Assembly (NCBI GenBank): GCA_045837725.1
Contig: JBEWZL010000011.1
Coordinates: 1-64,000 of the forward strand
Origin: Vermamoeba vermiformis
Lineage: Eukaryota
Direction of reading: 5' to 3'
DNA: 64,000 nucleotides
Shown here: piece after piece, positions 1-8,849 of the stretch
Position numbering within the stretch: the first letter of the stretch is position 1
How the letters are laid out: every line of letters begins with the position of its first letter
Position numbers and translations under genes: made by a program
Notes under the pieces: generated by a model
The model's input: only the letters and a program-made list of their open reading frames with translations
Database searches by the model: none
Told to the model about the DNA's origin: nothing

Positions 1-20
1 CGAAAAGAAAATAGCACACT
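1..20 (+). pseudogene. Protein kinase gene, portion upstream of the transposon insertion (runs off the window's left edge)
   Basis: Bases 2-20 read GAA AAG AAA ATA GCA CAC T (EKKIAH). Joined to 8310 onward they restore the catalytic loop IAHCDVKYSNVV in frame. Confidence 0.85.
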
Positions 21-38
21 CACTACCGAATGTAAAAC
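21..38 (+). repeat. Left terminal inverted repeat
   Basis: CACTACCGAATGTAAAAC versus the reverse complement of 8290-8307, CACTACCAAAAGTTGAAC (14/18 identical). Confidence 0.9.
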
Positions 39-41
39 CGC

Positions 42-126
42 AAATCACACCCGTGATTTTTTCCACAAATCACAGAGTATCTCTTGTGATGGAAACTATT
101 CTCACCGGGATGGAACTCACGGTGGG
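42..126. repeat. Left subterminal palindromic repeats (ATCAC/GTGAT core)
   Basis: AAATCAC-accc-GTGATTT (42-59); ATCACAGAG-tat-CTCtTGTGAT (69-90); weaker TCACCG...CGGTG (102-124). Confidence 0.8.
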
Positions 127-358
127 ATTTTGGTTTGCGGGGAATGAGTCATGAAACACAACGGCAGTTGTACCGATATCCGATGCATGCGTTGTTGATT
201 AGGAGCAGAACACACATTTGTATTGCAAGAATGATAAAAGTCTTTATTGAATAACAAGACAAATAGCATTTACATGTACCTAAAACAAAAAACAATATGC
301 AGTGTGCACTCAGCAGCGAAACAAAAAACTGGCAGTAATGCATTTCTAATTGTATCTA

Positions 359-2631
359 TTAATCTTCTGCTACGGACAACTTGTCTGCAGTTTCATCTTC
401 ATCGTTATCGCTGTCTGCGGGAGCTGATCTCTAAGAACTGTCAGTAGTGATTTGATAGATGATGCGTCGCTTACAGGGTAGGTTCGGTCAACTTTTCTTT
501 TCTTACGTGGAGGTTCGTCCAACTAGTTAAATCATTAACAACAATTGATATCAAGATTCGCAGTGAGTTAGGATACTTACAGGGTTTTTCATTCTGTCCA
601 AGATCAATTCCTTAATCTGGATTATAGTTAAATTAGTTAGTTTGGCGAATATTTAACTTACGACTGTTTTGGCTAACTTTTTGTCTTCCGGAGTAGGATT
701 TGTTTTGGTCCACTGACCAATTCGTAGTATTCGATCTACGTGGTCGGAAATATCAGCCTCTTCAATTGTAGGATTTTCTTTAAAGTATTCATTAACGGCA
801 ATAGCAGTGTTATCGACGAAAGTTTTATATAAAGTGCAGCGTAGGTATTCCTTGGACTTAAATAAAGTAGTTAAAACTAAGTAAAAAAGTTAGTCATACT
901 CACTTTGTCAACTGCAACTTTGAAGACAGCTTGATTTTCTTCATTGTCGGGGTCTAACGCAAGAGCTTCAGCAATAATCTCGGTTATCTTTCCAACGTTC
1001 ATGTATTGTTGAGTTGATCGATTTTCCGTGTGTGACTTGTGTGTTTTTGTTGGTGTCGTTCATGTTTTCCTTTGAGCTTAAATGGTTGGCTAGGCTAATA
1101 TTATTCCTGGGTTTAAGCGCTACTTCGTAACGAGGGCGCTTATTCCTTGGCTGCGTTTCGGCATTGTCATCTTCATCATTGCTATCGCTATCCGAAATTT
1201 GTCGTTTACGTGGCAATTTTTTGTGCGTTGACTGTGAGTTTTCGTCGTTTTGGTCGTCGACGAGGGCTAAATCTTCATCGTTGTCTTTGGAGCCGTTCAT
1301 GATACTTTGGAGCTTGTCAAACACGTTTTTGGAAAAGTCATTATTGACGTGCAAGTTTGAAACTTCCTGCTGTTTTGTCTTTAGATGATCGGCTGAAGTA
1401 GGTTGCCGAATGTTTTCAATGGCAGTACGATCGATTTTGGTTTTGTAAATATCACTAAACAGTGTTAATTCATCGAATTTAAAGCTGTGGTGTTAGCAGT
1501 ACATACGTCACTTTTCGCCTCAAATTTTCCAATTCTGCATCAGCGATGGCTGCAATTGTAAGGTGTGCATTCTTGTCGATGTTAGAAAACTGGCGCTTTA
1601 GGCTGTCGATCGTCGCCTTTATCTCACGTTCAAGACTAATTAGCTTATCAGGATTGTCAACATTCGTAATAGAATGAACGCAAAAACTCTCGGAGAAGAC
1701 CTGCATAGTTGGTGGTATCAGCTTCTCCAGCTGCTTGAGACAATCCTTGATTCCGTCGGTAAAGTGGTTCTTCCAAAGTAACACTACCTTTCGGAAGTAA
1801 TCTATTGCAAATTCATTAATTTAGTTTAAATTGCATCAAAATTAAAGTAACGCAAATTACCTTTACTGGTCGTAACAGCGCCGCACTGACTTTTGAGGCA
1901 GCTGTACGCTTCCTCTGTGACCGCTTTTTTGTTAATATTTTTGCCTCTGGTAATTGAAAGTTAGTACGTGGGTAAAAATGACTAAGTTAGTACTTTGGAA
2001 TCAACGAGCAATAAAGCTCTGCTAGTTCGGTGAAGGAAAAGTAGTCGACTAGCTTATTTGCCGTCGCACAAGCGACGACCACCTGAAGCAAATTAGAACA
2101 ACGCAAGATTGGTTTAATTTAATTCACATACTTTCTTGAGCAACGGCCGGATGTTTTCAACGCTTCCTGGCTGAGTTAGCACGATTGCTCCCCATTGGGT
2201 GATGCCAAGAGCCTTGGCAGCATGGACCCGCTTAAATCCATCGACGACACAGTATGTATTACGATGGAGCTGGTCGGACAGCTCCTTGCGTTGTTCGTCG
2301 TCGGGTCTCAAGCAAAAATTAGTTCGGTAAAAGTTGGTAGACGTTCACTTACTCCCATACAAGTAACGTAGAATGCTCCAAAATGCCATTTTGGAGGTGT
2401 GTGACCATCATTTTCAAGCTTTGTTCATTGACGGACTTGACGGGCCCGAGCAGATCAATTGTTGCAACGTCGTTTAACTGGACTTGAACATATTTTGTTT
2501 TAAAATTAAGTTGTCTAAAAATTAATACGTTATTTAAGGGCAGCACAATTAAATACAACTTACTCGCAGTATTTTTTCTGCTGATCTATTGTTTGTTTTT
2601 TTGAGGACGTGCCCTTTTTTTTTGCAGACAT
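359..2631 (-). CDS. Transposon cargo gene 1: ParB/Sulfiredoxin-like N-terminal domain, helical region and low-complexity basic/acidic tail (multi-exon)
   Basis: Spliced start MSAKKKGTSSKKQTIDQQKKYCE|QLNFKTKY. SVNEQSLKMMVTHLQNGILEHSTLLVW...YCVVDGFKRVHAAKALGITQWGAIVL matches the ParB N-terminal pattern. NLS-like PRKRQ and PRKKRK. 3' exons are approximate. Confidence 0.75.
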
Positions 2632-2685
2632 TGGTGGAGCTCAACGGTTATTGAATTAAAAATAAACAGCGAATGACGCGAACCG

Positions 2686-2780
2686 CGCGTGTCAAAAATA
2701 TCGAATGAAATTTCCCGTTAAGTCCGCTGCGTTGAATCAGGCTTAACTGCGGGAGATTTCCCTTCGTTATTTGACACGCG
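2686..2780. promoter_or_regulatory. Inverted-repeat bidirectional promoter candidate between the two cargo genes
   Basis: Arm 2686-2722 CGCGTGTCAAAAATATCGAATGAAATTTCCCGTTAAG resembles the reverse complement of 2742-2780, CGCGTGTCAAATAACGAAGGGAAATCTCCCGCAGTTAAG. It lies between ATGs at 2631 (-) and 2818 (+). Confidence 0.6.
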
Positions 2781-2817
2781 TTCTACTTTGAATATTTATT
2801 GCAACGTAAACACCACA

Positions 2818-5355
2818 ATGGACAAACAAATACACTCCGACGACGTTTATGAAAGCATCATTGAGGCCCAAATTAAACGAGGCAAGTTGACACATCTACA
2901 AATCGATTATTACATTATAAGATTAAACTAATTATAACTAATAACACTACGTTAATATTCATAAATATAGCAGTATTTATTAATTAATACTGTGCTGTGC
3001 TCGTATTATTATTTTAAAATAAAGAACGGAAACTAATCTGTATTTTCGCTGCGTTAGTGTCTAAAAACGGCAAAAGAATGGACGACATGATAAAATATTT
3101 TATTGAGGCCTCCAAACAACCGCTGAATGAAACGTTAAAGAGTACGTTGTAGATCGCAGCAATTATTTGACATCTAATATTTTTCATTTTTAAAGGAAAT
3201 GATATTATACGGGTTAGGCAATTTGAATGGCGAGCTGAGCAGTTTTTGCGCGTACGGCAAAACTTCTGGTTGGATGACGTTATAGTAAATTCCCTTGCCA
3301 CGTAAGTTTTTGCCAGATCGCGCGTACTTTGAAATAGTATTAATTTAAAATACAGGTTGTTTGTAGAGAAAGCAAACGTAAACGATAAAGTCATTGACTC
3401 TATTTTCTTGGAGGCCAACGAGTCGCGACAGCTTGTGGAGCTTCGTAATTATCGCTTCGTATACGCACCGTTATTTGACCGTACTATCTCCCATTTTCAA
3501 TTGCTTATTATCGACGCAAAGCGCAATTCTGCAATATTTTTGGATCCGAATCCACAACAAAAGAAAGGTATGTTCTTAAACAATTGTTAAAAAGTGCGTA
3601 GTATACTCATTATTGTAGGCACGAAGGCAACGCTGAATGCTCTGAAATCAAAGCTGGAGCGTGCTATTCCTGAGTTGTCTGCAGTCGCCAACTTCTCTGT
3701 CGTGTATCCACAGGCAACGCAGCAAAACGCGTTCGACTGTGGGTTGTATGTACTATCGTACATATACGAACAATGCAATACAACGGCTACCGTGAACAAA
3801 TTTTCAACTTGCTTAACGTGACAGCAATTGCTCGATTTGGTTCTTTCGTGCGTCTCAGAGGTAAGCAATCGGTACGAACATTGAATAAACATTTATTCTA
3901 ACGCAAAGTAGGGTGACAAATCTCGAGTGGAGCGCACGTTCAAAAAATTCGACGAGTCTAATTCAAAATTAATATTGGGCATCAGTACGGCGCATGAGCT
4001 TAGAGCGTTACAAATCAGCGAAGGTACGTATAGTTTTCACAAACAGCGCTTATTTATATATAAAATTAGATGAGTTGCTGCGCTACCTTGAAAAGTTAAG
4101 CAAACTTATTCCGCAGTACGTTCCGAACGAGCCCTCAGCGAGCTTGTGCGACACGATTGCGCATTTACACGATAAATACATGTACAATTATTCTTATGCT
4201 TTCATTTAATAAAGTCAACGTGGCTGACTACGAACGGCCTGTTCTACACAGTCACCTTACACTCGTTCGCGATGCAGCGCAGCACCTCCAGCCTTACATT
4301 TGGAATTTACTAATGGATCCAGCAACGGAATGGTGGTTACCGTTGCATGCTTTTAACGGTGGAAATGCCATGCCAAAGATCTACTGCGCGTTCTCGAAGG
4401 ATGTTGACTCATTACGACACTATGTACCTCATAGTACTCGCGGAGGAAGGCCTCTTTTGGCTTACCGTGCGCAATCAATTGATCAATTTACATTGAAAGC
4501 AGAATTCGACAAGCTCCTAAACCGATACGGATTTGCTTCTTGGAATTACGTTACAATTGTCCTTTACTCGGGAAGCAACTCAGGGATTAGTGCGCACCGA
4601 GATCGTCACCAACTACTTGGCTATGGCGAAGCCGAAGAACAAATAGCGTCGTTCATTTTTGGAGACGAAAGGTAATCACATGCTTAATACATAATTTCAA
4701 TACTCACACAAATTTTAGGACATTGACCATAATTGCTGGACAACGCGAGGTTTCCATTAATAATCCGTCGGGTTGCATGTACCTAATGCAAGGCATTCAA
4801 AAGTACTCACAGCACAAGAAAGACGGCGATACTGGAACTAGTGTTAGCGTCATTTTTAGGCAATTACTTCCTTACGCCGGGAATCAAAGCCAAGCAGACG
4901 CTCTGAACGTTCGCGTTAACGTTCCGTGGTCTGATTTGCAGTCGACACCTCAAAGTTGGAGGCCAACTGCGATAGACTTGCATCAGGACATTCCGATGAA
5001 GACTGCGTGGTTTAATCGACTGCACTTCAACTTAAGTGGCAGACACAAAGCCGATAGACAGGCCGTTTTCAGTCAACGCAACAAGATAATTAGCGTTCTA
5101 TCTACGTCACCAAGCAACATCGTTGACGACAATGCACAGCGGATTCTTTTCTATCTACCAACTTCTCACCCAAAAGCCAATGCGTTTGTCAAAACGAACA
5201 AGCTCAGAATCAGTTTTAGGGTGTATTGCAAGACGTTCTATTTTGCGGACATGCCCAAAAATGCGTACCTCTACTGCGGCGAGTATTATATCTCACACAA
5301 GATTAGACGCTGCAACAAATGCTTCTATTTACTAATTAGGAAAACAGCAACGTAA
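2818..5355 (+). CDS. Transposon cargo gene 2: Ulp1/C48 protease + AlkB-type 2OG-Fe(II) dioxygenase + SRA-like domain; in-frame TGA at 3819-3821 in this copy
   Basis: Ulp1: WLDDVIVN, SHFQLLIID, FLDP, QQNAFDCGLYV. AlkB: NYVTIVLY...ISAHRD...IASFIFGDER...SGCMYLMQG..QKYSQH...SVSVIFR. SRA-like: WFNR..SGRH...IISVLS...DD...N.F..T...FRVY...YLYCGEYYI. Junction near 4170-4214 is not canonical. Confidence 0.7.
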
Positions 5356-5465
5356 CCGCATTTTCGACGAAAACTACGGAACAAAGTTTGACCGGAATTG
5401 TGCCAGGATTTTGCGTGTTATCTGCATTACTTTTACCGTTCAATTTAATAAACCACAATTGTACA

Positions 5466-8102
5466 ATGAAAGTCAAATGGACCTGTACTTTGTGCGATAA
5501 GACACTCCTCGCACGTAACCGAAGTCGACACCTACTGGGCAAGAAGCACCTGCGAAAAGCTGCTGAATTGAACGACAACGAAAAAGATATAACCCCAATA
5601 TCGGTAACAGGTGCATATTTGCAATACTGCTATTCATTAAATGATAAAATTGTATTTTTTAATTAATTTTTCTGATTCGAATTTAACTTAATCTTCTCAG
5701 CCAAAGACGATGAGATACTACTGGAGGAGGAGAGTCCGCACACGGCAATCGATACGGTCCAGCAAACTACTAGCACTGATAATTCACCTGAATTGACTAT
5801 TGCAATGCTGATCCATCTGTATTGCACGCAGAAAAATGTCTCTCTTGCAAACGAGAAAACTCTGTTCAACATTCTATCGCTACCTCAATTCCATGCACTT
5901 GATGTTCCAACATTTGCAAGCTTTCAAAAGCAAGTTAAGGCAATGCTTCAAATTATCCAATACGATACGATAACGACGCGCTTCAAGCATCCGAAGCAAA
6001 AGAATTACAAGCCACAAGATGCGTTCAAGCTGGGCCCAATTTGCGAAGTTCCTGTCTACAATGTACTTCAACACTTGGAGCTCTTCCTTCGGGATCCACA
6101 ATTCAGTGCTAGCATCGTTACGCACTCCAATTATAACGGAACAACGTTCTCTACATTTGATACTGGAAAGTACTTTCACGACTTGTGCCTTTCTCTACCC
6201 GTTGGAACAATTCCTATCTGCCGTAAGCATGAACGAAACTATTCCAAATAGCAAAATTATCTAACCATTCGCAGTTGATTTATACTGGGATGACACAGGA
6301 ATTTCCAGCAAAAAGAAGTGCGGGCCAATATGGATTGGCATAGCCAATTGCAAACCAGACGTAAAGCGTTCAACCCAATCTCGAATGTTGCTATCAATTG
6401 TCCCTGGCAATGCTGATATCAACGTTGTTCTTTCAAATTTCGTAGAGCAACTGTCTAAACTCCGAGTGCAGCAATTCTACTTTGGCTGCTTTAACTGCTT
6501 CCTTACGTGCCATATCACTCTTTCTTTGGTACTAGGAGACGCTCCTGCTAGTAACGGCGTTATCGGACTCCGTGCACCAACTTGTTCAAATCCTTGCCGC
6601 TTGTGTTTGGTACCACTTCAAGAATTGAAGCAGATACCTGTCATTGATTTGACCATTAATACCGTGGACGATGTTACTTGGAAACTACGACGAGTTGATA
6701 AGCACATAGAGCTAGTATCTGACGTGCACAACAAACATAGACACGGCACAATGGAAGCACAAGAAAAACGATTAAAGGATGTTGGCGTATGCTTTTATTT
6801 GGTAAGTTCAATGCCCGATAAGCTACGGTTATTCATTTGTTGTTCAGAGTCCGCTATGCAAGATGCCTAATTTTGACATTTTTGCTCAATCGCCGTACTG
6901 CTTGTTGCACAATGAGTTTCTTGGTAAGTATTCTAAGTAGCAAAATACGAACTAATTACCTTAGGATTGATACCATTCCATATTGATTGCACCCTAGCAT
7001 TGCTGTCTCTGAGCGACATCGAAATTGTCAACGATAGAATCGTCAGTTTTCCCAACCTTCCCAATTTACCTTCTTTAAATGCCGATATAGAAGAGCGCAA
7101 GGGATGGGAAGGCAAAGCATATACTGCCTTTTACAAAATGGCATTATTTGTCTTTCGGAAACTTTTGTCGAACAAGGCAATGCTTTGCTGGTGAGTGTTA
7201 CTGCAACTGTTGCAATGTGGTTAATTATGAGTTTTAGGCGTGCCCACTGCCGCTTTATTAGATACCTAATGAAGCCATCAATTTCAAACGATAAAATTGA
7301 AAACATGATGGCAAGTTATTGGCAGTGGAAGCGTTTGTTCATCGAACTGTACCAAGCCCATGCTGACGCACAACCAAAAGCAGCTAACAAAAAAGCAATG
7401 ACTTTTATTAATTTACACGTTGGCGAACACTGGGCGTACTATATAAAACAATACGGAATGCCAGCAGAGTACTCGACGCAACATTGGGAGTTGCTCCATC
7501 AACAAGTAAAAAGAAAAGAGAAGAAATCCAATCATCAATTCCCAGCACATGACATCGCCAAGCAGATAATCGAACAGAAAGTGCTTCAGTATCGCTTTGG
7601 TTCTATTGACGTATGTTTAACATTCTAATAACTTTCCGCTAAACTTTTGCAGGATATATGCAAGAGTCAAAGCAAAATAACCCGATTAGTGGTCAACGAA
7701 TGTGTCCTACTTAACGTCAGCAGAAAACAAATACCGGACCATCTCAAATCACTTATTACAGACAATTTGGTGAACAAACAACTTCCCCTACACTACAAGC
7801 AGTACAAGTCAGTAGTCTTTGGCGGTAGCAGATTTTCGCATGGGGACAACTTTAGCTTTAAGATTGACGGCGAAAAAAAGTTTGCCCAAATTCTTACCAT
7901 AATCAACGTTGACTCATACACGGCATTTGTCGCTCAAGAATACAACTTCATGACACCAACTATCGATGTCAATCAAACGGAATATTACTGCGTTTACCAA
8001 ACTGACTCCTACATCGTAATGGATGTTACCGGAGCTCGCAAAGAGCAACTCCTCTACTGCGATGACTTGGATTGTTTCCTTGTCAATTTTTATTATCAAT
8101 AA
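5466..8102 (+). CDS. CACTA/CMC (Transposase_21/Plavaka-like) DDE transposase with N-terminal C2H2 zinc finger, 5 introns
   Basis: CTLC...RHLLGKKH finger; FDTGKYF; LYWDDTG (D1); LGDAPAS...PCRLC (D2); CLLHNEFLG; NLHVGEH..YIKQYG....STQHWELLH (E). All five GT-AG junctions keep the frame. Confidence 0.88.
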
Positions 8103-8204
8103 ATTTTACTATTATTAAAAATTAATTGTGCTATTGGTACTCAAACAATCAGATACCACTGTACATGAGGTTGTGTTTTGCTCTACATACGGTGCTATCT
8201 AGCT

Positions 8205-8290
8205 GTGATATGTATCACGCCGAGGAATTAATCACTAGTGATCACTCCTTGTGATCCATGCGTGATTTGAATCTCGGAGATATTCCCGAG
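8205..8290. repeat. Right subterminal palindromic repeats
   Basis: GTGATA-tg-TATCAC (8205-8218); ATCACTAGTGAT (8231-8242); ATCAC-tcctt-GTGAT (8241-8255); GTGATTTG (8262-8269); CTCGG...CCGAG (8273-8290). Confidence 0.8.
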
Positions 8291-8307
8291 TTCAACTTTT
8301 GGTAGTG
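8290..8307 (-). repeat. Right terminal inverted repeat
   Basis: GTTCAACTTTTGGTAGTG, followed by the CT target duplication. Confidence 0.9.
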
Positions 8308-8309
8308 CT

Positions 8310-8849
8310 GTGATGTCAAATACTCAAATGTAGTATTTGGTGAGGAAGGCACTTATCTCATTGACTTTGATCTGGCATTGGAGAATCCAGGTAAGGCAGA
8401 GGCTTGGCTGAAAGTAATTTGAGATGAGCTAACAATATATTCATGAATAGGCAGGAATCAAGGAACTTTTGGTTACAGTGCACCAGAAACAAAACAGCGT
8501 GGAGAATTATCGTACAAAAGTGATATTTATTCATTTGGCATCTTTTTATTTGAGCTGGCAAGAAGATGTGAACTTTACGACATGGATGAACAATTCTACA
8601 ATATTGATGAACTGAAAATGGCTCGCAATATTCGAATTGCCATAAAAAAGTATGCACTTGCTATTAATTAATTTATTTATTTGTTTAACCTCTTTTGGTA
8701 GACTTGCCTTCAGATCGCCATGGCATGCAGAAATAGTGGCGTTGATTGAAAAGTGCATGAATGAGGATCCGAACTTGCGGCCCAGTGCCAAAGAGCTCTT
8801 GGCTGAGCCATTCTTGGCCCTCAACAATCAGAAAGCCAGACTTCACTAA
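8310..8849 (+). pseudogene. C-terminal lobe of a Ser/Thr protein kinase interrupted by the transposon (3 exons)
   Basis: (HC)DVKYSNVVF...LIDFDLA | GTFGYSAPE...[14 protein letters not shown] | LIEKCMNEDPNLRPSAKELL, i.e. subdomains VIb-XI. Confidence 0.88.

What the first reader, a model, noticed from the sequence alone, without database searches (positions are those of the whole stretch)
4330..5355. AlkB-type dioxygenase joined to an SRA-like domain: candidate methyl-DNA reader-eraser
Seen: metal ligands HxD (HRD) and distal H (SQH) plus the terminal FR, spliced in frame (intron ~4672-4718) to a C-terminal domain with SRA spacing. The usual Asn of the NxY strand and the first Arg of RxxxxxR appear replaced (IVLY, SVSVIFR), so the chemistry may be altered or lost. 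Known: AlkB-SRA fusions occur in fungi. Inference: it targets and modifies methylated transposon DNA.
Basis: partly seen in the sequence, partly recalled or inferred. Interest (0 to 1): 0.75.

Follow-up and report, generated by a model that had tools for sequence, protein, structure and literature searches.

The report
Transposon-borne AlkB-like dioxygenase with SRA domain
A jumping DNA element that has landed inside a kinase gene carries a gene joining a very divergent AlkB-type oxidative demethylase to a domain that folds like the methyl-DNA reader SRA, probably a tool the element uses against DNA-methylation silencing.

Summary
The HRD, SQH and IFR motifs, the replaced Asn and first Arg, and the 47-nt GT..AG intron (4672-4718) are all present. 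The coding sequence starts upstream of 4330, at about 4215.

The C-terminal 125 residues fold as an SRA domain (pLDDT above 90). SUVH5, TagI, KRYPTONITE and UHRF1 SRA domains match at Z 12-14; the first unrelated fold is at Z 5.9.

The N-terminal half is AlkB-like only by weak, mutually consistent signals. No curated threshold is reached.

The gene is not a host gene. It lies in an 8.3-kb DNA transposon (21-8307) with 5'-CACTACC inverted ends and a 2-bp target duplication. Removing the element restores an open kinase reading frame. The element also carries a Ulp1-like protease gene, a zinc-finger/DDE-like transposase gene and a minus-strand gene. A metagenome element keeps the same gene order at about 51% protein identity.

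A relative encodes protease, AlkB and SRA as one 634-aa ORF, so a spliced three-domain protein is likely here too.

Function is inferred, not shown: reading and oxidative erasure of a modified base to counter silencing. AlkB-SRA fusions in fungi and TET/JBP-carrying transposons were already described, so this is a new variant of a known kind.

The parts
21..8307 (+). CACTA-like (CMCT-type) DNA transposon that carries the gene
   Evidence: The inverted ends begin 5'-CACTACC on both sides. tblastx to the metagenome element L001 is colinear from 490 to 8100. DNA contigs of run X1 join both ends to other flanks.
21..38 (+). left terminal inverted repeat
   Evidence: 14 of the first 18 bases match the reverse complement of the right end. 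It resembles the L001 ends.
8290..8307 (-). right terminal inverted repeat
   Evidence: Loose ends in runs X1 and X3 start exactly after 8307.
19..20 (.). target-site duplication CT, left copy (the right copy is at 8308-8309)
   Evidence: The same dinucleotide flanks both ends. L001 is flanked by TA on both sides.
8308..8671 (+). host protein-kinase gene interrupted by the element; its upstream part ends at window 1-20
   Evidence: Joining the flanks with one copy of CT gives one open frame carrying a kinase catalytic-loop pattern and a DFD motif. Pfam Pkinase scores E 2.2e-7 on 8447-8671. An uninterrupted look-alike contig is present in X1.
360..2600 (-). minus-strand element gene of unknown function, with a ParB-like box at 2114-2344; limits approximate
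   Evidence: Six CT..AC joints appear in the X3 contigs. It is conserved with L001. There is no Pfam hit.
2815..4209 (+). Ulp1-like (C48) cysteine protease gene, protease-only isoform
   Evidence: Pfam Peptidase_C48 hits are weak (E 0.0072 and 0.026). Five GT..AG joints appear in the X3 contigs. It is colinear with P0040 residues 63-270.
4215..4671 (+). AlkB-like exon 1. It starts at a candidate alternative acceptor (AG at 4213-4214). In-frame ATGs lie at 4196 and 4313.
   Evidence: No start codon is conserved among the relatives.
4595..4603 (+). H-R-D metal-binding motif
   Evidence: His and Asp are each present in 13 of 13 pieces.
4672..4718 (+). 47-nt GT..AG intron, phase 2
   Evidence: L001 has an intron at the same position. 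A 2-nt deletion and one substitution of the X1 copy fall inside it. Its splice joint was not seen in RNA.
4719..5355 (+). exon 2: the last strands of the dioxygenase fold, a linker, the SRA domain and the stop codon
4813..4860 (+). distal His (4813-4815), the conserved Lys two residues later (4819-4821), and the S-x-S-V-I-F-R strand ending in Arg (4858-4860)
   Evidence: His is kept in 17 of 18 pieces, Lys in 18 of 18 and Arg in 18 of 18. Ser replaces the first Arg in 17 of 17.
4972..5352 (+). SRA-fold domain (residues 85-211 of the exon-2 product)
   Evidence: The model has block-mean pLDDT 81-96 over residues 91-210. Foldseek and VIA-align top hits are all SRA domains.
5466..8102 (+). C2H2 zinc-finger plus DDE-like transposase gene, multi-exon; first intron at 5611-5700
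   Evidence: It shares 35-72% amino-acid identity with L001 across all blocks. The X3 contigs carry the intron joint. C-x2-C and H-x4-H motifs follow the candidate second Asp. There is no Pfam or PDB hit.

Best explanation
Shown:
- The gene at about 4215-5355 belongs to an 8.3-kb CACTA-like DNA transposon that inserted into a kinase exon.
- It encodes a very divergent AlkB-type Fe(II) dioxygenase domain followed by a domain with the SRA fold.
- Both domains, their order, and the neighbouring Ulp1-like protease and transposase genes are conserved in related elements of other organisms.

Inferred:
- The protein is made, at least in part, as a three-domain Ulp1 protease-AlkB-SRA fusion. This would use an alternative splice from the donor at 4023/4024 to the acceptor at 4214/4215.
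- The SRA domain binds DNA and flips out a modified base. Because the usual 5mC-pocket residues are not kept, that base may be 6mA or another mark rather than 5mC.
- The dioxygenase oxidises the methyl group on that base or a nearby one.
- The result would be that copies of the element stay free of a host silencing mark. This parallels what is proposed for TET/JBP genes carried by fungal DNA transposons.
- The metal triad is kept. The usual 2-oxoglutarate contacts (Asn, first Arg) are replaced in the same way throughout the family, and a conserved Lys two residues after the distal His is a candidate substitute.
For: SRA fold:
- The AF2 model of the window's own exon-2 product has mean pLDDT 78.6, with block means of 81-96 for residues 91-210.
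- Foldseek against PDB gave 40 hits at E <= 0.001, and every listed row is an SRA or SRA-like domain. The best are TagI at 3.7e-5 and SUVH5 at 4.7e-5 with TM 0.67.
- VIA-align against 48,161 chains gave SUVH5 Z 14.4 (rmsd 2.4 over 117 residues), TagI 13.7, KRYPTONITE 13.3 and NP95 12.0. The first unrelated fold is at Z 5.9.
- 5 of 19 family members give sub-threshold Pfam SAD_SRA hits.

AlkB type:
- 12 of 13 PDB sequences hit by P0016 are ALKBH2 (best E 0.027), aligned across the HxD strand.
- 4 of 13 N-terminal pieces hit PF13532 (best E 1.9e-4, below the curated cut-off).
- 28 of 30 nearest ESM Atlas clusters carry PF13532, at score 0.95.
- Catalytic residues are kept: HxD 13 of 13, distal His 17 of 18, Arg 18 of 18.

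Transposon:
- The window has terminal inverted repeats and a 2-bp duplication, and L001 has them too.
- Removing the element restores the kinase reading frame.
- X1 DNA contigs show other flanks at both ends and an uninterrupted look-alike of the kinase site.
- The L002 contig ends exactly at the L001 repeat end.
- Gene order is colinear over 490-8100.

Fusion:
- P0040 is one 634-aa ORF. It covers the protease (window 3225-4022) and then AlkB-SRA (4253-5340), and skips 4070-4209.
- The same donor-acceptor pair is in frame in the window and in L001.
- The AlkB ORF has no conserved ATG.

Expression of the element:
- Spliced contigs in run X3 cover the protease gene, the transposase gene and the minus-strand gene.

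Analogy:
- TET/JBP genes carried by DNA transposons, including the CMCT lineages (PMC12730594; abstract and passages read).
Against: - No curated family threshold is reached for either domain.
- Neither of the window's own two pieces gives a Pfam hit to either family.
- None of the 5 N-terminal pieces of the window's clade hits PF13532.
- Profile searches of PDB with the N-terminal alignment and the full alignment gave nothing significant.
- hhalign against E. coli AlkB was negative, probability 0.1%.
- P0029 alone finds no PDB chain.
- The N-domain was never modelled as a whole.
- The Asn and the first Arg that hold 2-oxoglutarate in AlkB are absent in every member: 0 of 13 Asn, and Ser in 17 of 17. 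The enzyme may therefore not use 2OG in the usual way, or may be inactive.
- In run X3 the AlkB-SRA region has depth of only 0.03-3. Neither its intron joint nor the proposed fusion joint was listed; only the protease-only joint 4023 to 4070 was seen.
- Substrate, DNA binding and any effect on silencing are untested.
- Whether the host has 5mC or 6mA is unknown.
Confidence: 0.5

Rival explanations
1. It is a repair or RNA-demethylation function for the element, not epigenetic erasure. The AlkB domain would remove alkylation damage (1mA, 3mC) or m6A from the element's DNA intermediates or transcripts. This would resemble AlkB domains in plant viruses (recalled) and in orchid Ty3/Gypsy retrotransposons.
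For: The nearest solved relative by sequence is the repair enzyme ALKBH2. An AlkB m6A RNA demethylase domain in LTR retrotransposons is in print (PMC9289625; only the search listing and the start of the abstract were seen).
Against: The partner domain has the fold of DNA base-flipping readers of modified bases, which a pure damage-repair or RNA enzyme would not need. No RNA-binding domain was found.
Confidence: 0.15
2. It is a catalytically silent binding module. Having lost the usual 2-oxoglutarate contacts, the AlkB-like domain no longer turns over. The protein would act only by binding modified DNA and bringing the Ulp1 protease to it, for example to strip SUMO from silencing factors.
For: Asn and the first Arg are replaced in all members. 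A relative has the protease fused in one ORF.
Against: The metal triad is strictly kept: HxD in 13 of 13 and the distal His in 17 of 18. The terminal Arg and a new Lys are each kept in 18 of 18 over pieces down to 25% identity. That is the pattern of a working active site.
Confidence: 0.15
3. It is a passenger or decaying gene. A host AlkB-SRA gene would have been captured by the transposon and carried along without benefit to the element.
For: The window's ORF has no conserved start codon. RNA signal over it in X3 is very low.
Against: Gene order and intron position are kept in L001 at about 51% protein identity, with open frames. The protease-AlkB-SRA order is also kept in the more distant P0016 group. 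The only indel between the window and the X1 copy lies in the intron.
Confidence: 0.07

Closest known systems
Fungal AlkB 2OGFeDO proteins fused to a divergent SAD(SRA) domain, predicted by Iyer, Zhang and Aravind (BioEssays 2016, PMC4738411, citing Iyer et al. 2009)
   Same: The two-domain architecture is the same. Their SRA is also described as divergent, and they suggest it could read m6A rather than 5mC and that the proteins may be m6A demethylases (passages read).
   Different: The passages I read say nothing of a transposon, a Ulp1 partner or changed 2OG contacts. I could not test whether those proteins are the same sequence family: their list is in a figure and supplements that I could not see, and the 2009 paper is not held. 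The taxon of this window is unknown to me.
TET/JBP dioxygenase genes carried by fungal DNA transposons (Kyakuja-Dileera-Zisupton, Plavaka, EnSpm, ESTA and others; Kojima 2025, PMC12730594)
   Same: A 2OG/Fe-type nucleic-acid dioxygenase rides as cargo in a cut-and-paste DNA transposon. This includes lineages with CA..TG ends and 2-5 bp duplications. The proposed role is escape from methylation silencing.
   Different: The enzyme here is AlkB-like, not TET/JBP. It has its own reader domain. The paper contains no mention of AlkB, SRA or Ulp1 (0 occurrences each).
SRA domains of SUVH5, KRYPTONITE and UHRF1/NP95, and of the bacterial enzymes TagI and ScoMcrA
   Same: The fold is the same: Z 10-14 over 115-126 residues. 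The R-x3-N-L-x-G-x-H, x-S-I/V and Y-x-G-x-Y motifs are recognisable.
   Different: Sequence identity is 10-16%. No Pfam threshold is reached. The position aligned with the first pocket Tyr is variable, and no Asp is conserved where the cytosine-contacting Asp is expected (the pocket residues are recalled).
AlkB / ALKBH2 / ALKBH3 oxidative demethylases (Pfam PF13532)
   Same: The HxD...H triad, the Tyr of N-x-Y, the terminal F-R strand and the order of strands are shared.
   Different: Asn and the first Arg are replaced, and there is a conserved H-x-K. All sequence scores fall below the curated cut-offs.
AlkB domain in orchid Ty3/Gypsy LTR retrotransposons (PMC9289625)
   Same: A transposable element has acquired an AlkB-family domain (search listing and start of abstract only).
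   Different: That case is a retrotransposon whose domain is described as an m6A RNA demethylase. No SRA domain is mentioned in what I saw.

Membership tests
AlkB-type 2OG/Fe(II) dioxygenases (Pfam PF13532) | Profile match at the curated threshold | tested here: not met
   The window's pieces give no hit. The best family member reaches 21.4 bits against a cut-off of 31.2. 4 of 13 pieces hit below threshold. hhalign against E. coli AlkB was negative.
AlkB-type 2OG/Fe(II) dioxygenases (Pfam PF13532) | HxD...H iron-binding triad | tested here: met
   The motifs lie at 4595-4603 and 4813-4815. They are conserved in 13 of 13, 13 of 13 and 17 of 18 pieces.
AlkB-type 2OG/Fe(II) dioxygenases (Pfam PF13532) | 2-oxoglutarate contacts: the Asn of N-x-Y and the first Arg of R-x-N-x-T-F-R (the roles of these residues are recalled) | tested here: not met
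   Val or Leu stands at the Asn position in 13 of 13 pieces. Ser stands at the Arg position in 17 of 17. The Tyr (13 of 13) and the last Arg (18 of 18) are kept.
AlkB-type 2OG/Fe(II) dioxygenases (Pfam PF13532) | Double-stranded beta-helix fold of the whole domain | tested here: inconclusive
   Only the last four strands were modelled, at pLDDT about 60. ESM Atlas features place the homologue's residues 1-215 next to PF13532 clusters in 28 of 30 hits at score 0.95.
SAD/SRA (YDG) domain | SRA fold | tested here: met
   Z is 14.4 to SUVH5, 13.7 to TagI and 12.0 to NP95. All 15 top rows are SRA or SRA-like readers, and the next fold is at Z 5.9. Foldseek gave 40 hits at E <= 0.001.
SAD/SRA (YDG) domain | Profile match at the curated threshold (PF02182) | tested here: not met
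   The best score is 16.1 bits against a cut-off of 30.7. 5 of 19 members hit below threshold, and the window's own piece is not among them.
SAD/SRA (YDG) domain | 5mC pocket: two stacking Tyr and a cytosine-contacting Asp (recalled from UHRF1 and SUVH5) | tested here: inconclusive
   By the HMMER alignment to SUVH5, the first Tyr position is variable. The second is aromatic, Phe in 16 of 19. No Asp is conserved. No residue-level structural alignment was available.
SAD/SRA (YDG) domain | Binding of modified DNA with base flipping | not testable with these tools
   This needs binding assays or a co-structure.
CACTA/EnSpm-Mirage-Chapaev-Transib (CMCT) DNA transposons | 5'-CA..TG-3' termini with inverted repeats and a 2-5 bp target duplication (as stated in PMC12730594) | tested here: met
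   The ends read CACTACC... and ...GGTAGTG. The duplication is CT in the window and TA in L001.
CACTA/EnSpm-Mirage-Chapaev-Transib (CMCT) DNA transposons | [quoted passage not shown] | tested here: inconclusive
   C-R-L-C and H-x4-H follow a candidate L-G-D-A-P-A motif in ORF 6265-6870. No profile or PDB hit supports the assignment.
Ulp1/C48 protease (the neighbouring, possibly fused, gene) | Profile match and the His, Asp, Gln, Cys catalytic residues | tested here: inconclusive
   Pfam gives E 0.0072 and 0.026 on two exon pieces, below the cut-off. The H..D and Q..C motifs are visible in the translation.

The most novel reading that the evidence does not exclude
A lineage of CACTA-like DNA transposons makes a three-domain anti-silencing protein: a Ulp1 deSUMOylase, an AlkB-like dioxygenase and an SRA reader. 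The protein would find a host DNA mark on the element, erase it oxidatively with a dioxygenase that holds its co-substrate in a way not seen in AlkB enzymes (Lys in place of Arg/Asn), and at the same time strip SUMO from the silencing machinery. It would be a new, self-contained reader-eraser family outside TET/JBP.
Probability: 0.25. Interest if true: 0.85.

Novelty: new variant of a known kind. Interest (0 to 1): 0.63.

Why it matters
Transposons that carry their own DNA-demethylation enzymes are known so far for TET/JBP in fungi. An independent case built on an AlkB-like enzyme with a built-in SRA reader, perhaps tied to a SUMO protease, would show that mobile elements have found this counter-silencing strategy more than once.

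The family is unnamed in every source I saw. It is invisible to Pfam at curated thresholds, and its 2-oxoglutarate site is altered but conserved, so its chemistry may be unusual.

The prediction that divergent AlkB-SRA proteins erase 6mA dates from 2009 and 2016. It becomes directly testable with a compact protein of about 375 residues. A working reader-eraser pair would also interest people who build epigenome-editing tools.

Tried and rejected
- **Own genome:** none is held for this window.
- **Earlier findings of the scan:** nothing by place, by sequence or by words.
- **First model:** the model from a 3-sequence alignment was poor (pLDDT 41.7) and was not used.
- **One alignment of all 31 pieces:** MAFFT stretched the N-terminal pieces over the C-terminal half. 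I used separate alignments (A5, A6) and a reduced full-length one (A7).
- **PDB searches that led nowhere:**
  - The A5 profile gave only TrwC at E 0.15.
  - The A7 profile had an unrelated mutase on top at E 0.37 and ALKBH2 at 0.83.
  - P0029 alone gave nothing.
  - The transposase piece gave nothing relevant.
- **hhalign:** A7 against the single E. coli AlkB sequence gave probability 0.1%. One sequence makes a weak target.
- **P0010:** this 3743-aa protein with 12 short matches is an unrelated repetitive protein. I dropped it from all alignments.
- **RNA holders:** no RNA holder was listed for the stretch. The raw RNA runs X12 and X14 of organism A gave 1 and 0 reads, which is no test.
- **TET/JBP idea:** I first suspected a TET/JBP enzyme in a Kyakuja-Dileera-Zisupton element, because of the H-R-D motif. 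I dropped this because all family signals point to AlkB-type and the ends are CACTA-like.
- **Other copies:** there is no further copy of the element or the gene elsewhere in the window.
- **Taxon:** I did not establish it. A divergent beta-tubulin-like ORF gave no resolution.
- **Literature:** searches with AlkB, SRA, transposon, EnSpm and Ulp1 in various combinations found no report of a DNA transposon carrying AlkB-SRA. Subscription papers and supplements were not searched.
Full report
**1. Observation**

Frame 2 carries the strand I-V-L-Y, then H-R-D at 4595-4603, and runs to 4671. A 47-nt GT..AG intron at 4672-4718 in phase 2 joins it to frame 1. Frame 1 holds S-Q-H (His at 4813-4815), S-V-S-V-I-F-R (Arg at 4858-4860), about 165 further residues, and TAA at 5353-5355.

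Conserved in-frame sequence extends upstream to about 4215.

**2. Relatives**

The window's two exon products give no meaningful Pfam hit and no PDB hit. The searches found the following:

| Search | Query | Result |
|---|---|---|
| word-indexed | exon 2 | 2 proteins among 35 candidates |
| full HMMER scan of 1.84 billion representatives | 3-sequence profile | 10 at E <= 0.001 |
| profile search | C-terminal pieces | 11 of 1773 candidates |
| profile search | N-terminal pieces | 20 of 3290 candidates |

One hit, P0010, is an unrelated repetitive protein that I dropped.

All relatives come from metagenome, JGI, Logan or unnamed NCBI records. Every name on record is 'hypothetical protein'. Most are pieces that stop at the intron or start after it. 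P0016 (359 aa) is a continuous full-length form.

There are two clades. The window's clade is 39-66% identical to it. The P0016 clade is 25-43% identical.

**3. The dioxygenase half**

Evidence for an AlkB-type domain is consistent but weak.

- phmmer of P0016 against PDB returns 13 sequences at E <= 10. Twelve are ALKBH2 (best E 0.027), aligned over the strand before HxD, the HxD motif and the next strand.
- 4 of 13 N-terminal pieces hit Pfam PF13532. The best is E 1.9e-4 at 21.4 bits against a cut-off of 31.2. All four are in the P0016 clade and none is in the window's clade.
- ESM Atlas features of P0016 residues 1-215 lie next to PF13532 clusters in 28 of 30 hits, at score 0.95. The tool says shuffled proteins reach that level about once in 100.

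Against this:

- Profile searches of PDB gave nothing significant.
- hhalign against E. coli AlkB was negative.

Conservation argues for a working metal site. The HxD His and Asp are each kept in 13 of 13 pieces, the distal His in 17 of 18, and the terminal Arg in 18 of 18.

The Asn position is Val or Leu in 13 of 13 pieces. The first-Arg position is Ser in 17 of 17. A Lys two residues after the distal His is kept in 18 of 18. The roles of Asn and Arg in holding 2-oxoglutarate are recalled knowledge of AlkB, not tested here.

**4. The SRA half**

With a 19-sequence alignment, the window's own exon-2 product gave a model of mean pLDDT 78.6. Block means are 81-96 over residues 91-210 and about 60 over the first 90.

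Foldseek against PDB gave 40 hits at E <= 0.001, and all listed rows are SRA or SRA-like domains. These include TagI at 3.7e-5, SUVH5 at 4.7e-5 with TM 0.67 and rmsd 2.8, KRYPTONITE, UHRF1, UHRF2, SUVH6/9 and LpnPI.

An independent all-against-all alignment to 48,161 chains gave these top matches:

| Chain | Z |
|---|---|
| SUVH5 | 14.4 (rmsd 2.4 over 117 residues) |
| TagI | 13.7 |
| KRYPTONITE | 13.3 |
| SUVH6 | 12.7 |
| NP95 | 12.0 |
| ScoMcrA | 10.6 |

The modification-dependent restriction enzymes AspBHI, SauUSI, MspJI, LpnPI, AbaSI and PvuRts1I follow. The first unrelated fold is at Z 5.9.

Sequence signals agree but are weak.

- 5 of 19 members hit SAD_SRA, best E 0.0094.
- The only PDB hit of the C-terminal profile is SUVH5 SRA, at E 0.45.
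- ESM features point to the SRA families at 0.79, which is a lead only.

By the alignment, the positions of the 5mC-stacking Tyr and the cytosine-contacting Asp (recalled) are not conserved. The second aromatic is kept, as Phe in 16 of 19. The base that this domain reads is therefore open.

**5. The gene sits in a transposon**

tblastx shows that the 9.7-kb metagenome contig L001 is colinear with window 490-8100, in this order:

- a minus-strand gene;
- a Ulp1-like protease gene;
- the AlkB-SRA gene, with its intron at the same codon;
- a zinc-finger/DDE-like gene.

L001 has 44-nt inverted repeats of 82% identity at 113-156 and 9549-9592. They begin 5'-CACTAC.

The window has the same kind of ends at 21 and 8307. 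Of the first 18 bases, 14 match. Both elements are flanked by a direct 2-bp repeat: CT in the window and TA in L001.

Joining window 1-20 to the sequence after 8309 gives one open frame. It carries a protein-kinase catalytic-loop pattern and a DFD motif. The kinase continues downstream (Pfam Pkinase E 2.2e-7). The element is therefore an insertion into a kinase exon.

Public reads and contigs support mobility.

- In DNA contigs of run X1, both ends of the element also continue into other flanks.
- In X1, a 506-nt look-alike of the kinase site with 6 differing letters and 6 gaps runs through the insertion point uninterrupted.
- Contig L002 is identical to L001 but for one base, and stops exactly at the repeat end.

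CA..TG ends, 2-5 bp duplications, and C(2)C and H(3-4)H motifs are given as features of the CACTA/EnSpm-Mirage-Chapaev-Transib group in PMC12730594 (passages read). The window's ORF 6265-6870 shows such motifs, but no profile confirms the transposase family.

**6. A likely three-domain protein**

P0040 (634 aa) is in the same 90% cluster as P0016. It is one ORF with a Ulp1-like protease followed by AlkB and SRA.

It is colinear with window 3225-4022 and then with 4253-5340. It skips the window's 4070-4209, which is the last exon of the protease-only form. Its cluster mate P0039 reads on into what looks like an unspliced intron at the same point.

In the window, the donor at 4023/4024 and an AG at 4213-4214 behind a pyrimidine-rich stretch are in frame with the AlkB ORF. 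The same holds in L001.

The conserved N-terminus of the AlkB ORF has an ATG only in L001 among the pieces aligned. I therefore infer an alternative splice that makes a protease-AlkB-SRA fusion. This is not shown for the window.

**7. Expression**

Run X3 is from another organism label, and its RNA status is a guess. Its contigs carry GT..AG joints for five protease-gene introns, including 4024-4069. They also carry the first transposase intron (5611-5700) and six minus-strand introns. Copies at 95% identity or more are therefore transcribed and spliced.

Over the AlkB-SRA gene the depth is only 0.03-3. Neither its intron joint nor the fusion joint is listed.

The X1 copy differs from the window in this gene by:

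- four exon substitutions, which by my reading of the codons are two silent and two replacing;
- one intron substitution;
- a 2-nt deletion inside the intron.

A complex prediction of the two exon products gave weak support.

- The score was 0.56 and the best of 3 controls was 0.00.
- By the tool's calibration, the mark was reached by 51 of 78 solved complexes and 2 of 108 mismatched pairs.
- At 0.60 or under, it was reached by only 5 of those 78 solved complexes, and by all 4 mismatches that passed (of 180).
- The runs agree in at least 25% of their contacts, and the partner's pLDDT is at least 27.
- The two chains are halves of one domain, so a pass may reflect likeness to solved dioxygenases.

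**8. Mechanism and rivals**

The best reading is that the element carries a reader-eraser that keeps its own DNA free of a host mark. The SRA domain would flip out and bind a modified base, and the AlkB-like domain would oxidise the methyl group. The protease domain, if fused, would act on SUMO-dependent silencing.

Only the architecture, its conservation and the transposon context are shown. Everything about substrate and effect is inferred.

The rivals are repair or RNA demethylation, a catalytically silent binding module, and a decaying passenger gene. They are weighed in their own section.

**9. Comparison with what is known, and novelty**

A divergent SAD(SRA) fused to AlkB 'in several fungi', possibly reading m6A, is already predicted in PMC4738411 (passages read), citing a 2009 paper that is not held. 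Transposon-borne TET/JBP genes are described in PMC12730594. An AlkB domain in orchid retrotransposons is described in PMC9289625 (listing only).

Five searches found no report of a DNA transposon carrying AlkB-SRA, with or without Ulp1. I could not see supplements or figures that may list the fungal proteins, so they could be the same family.

I rate this a new variant of a known kind.

Noticed in passing
window 1-20 and 8308-8671: A protein-kinase gene is split by the transposon. Both halves are still open, which suggests a fairly recent insertion. A look-alike without the insertion is present in DNA run X1.
   Followed up: yes
window 2114-2344 (minus strand): The element's minus-strand gene has a stretch that recalls the ParB box (D-G-x-x-R-x-x-A-A-K-x-x-G). 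There is no Pfam hit, so the resemblance rests on recall only.
   Followed up: partly
P0040, P0039 and P0042 (cluster of P0016): One cluster holds a 634-aa protease-AlkB-SRA ORF, a 320-aa protease-only ORF that reads on into an apparent intron, and a 359-aa AlkB-SRA ORF. This fits alternative splicing, or a mix of cDNA and genomic contigs.
   Followed up: partly
window 2879-3056: One X3 contig skips 176 bases here, with AG..TT ends rather than GT..AG. It may be a deletion variant of another copy or an assembly artefact.
   Followed up: no
window 19336-20538 (minus strand): This 400-codon open frame encodes a divergent beta-tubulin-like protein. Pfam Tubulin scores E 9.3e-31. The best PDB beta-tubulins reach only about 346 bits.
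   Followed up: partly
L002 against L001: The two metagenome contigs differ by 1 base in 5123, and L002 ends exactly at the element's terminal repeat. This is typical of an assembly break at a repeated element.
   Followed up: yes
window 4200-4214; P0023, P0030 and P0031: The stretch that reads F-N-K-V in the AlkB frame is kept in four relatives. It contains both the protease gene's stop codon and the candidate AG acceptor.
   Followed up: partly
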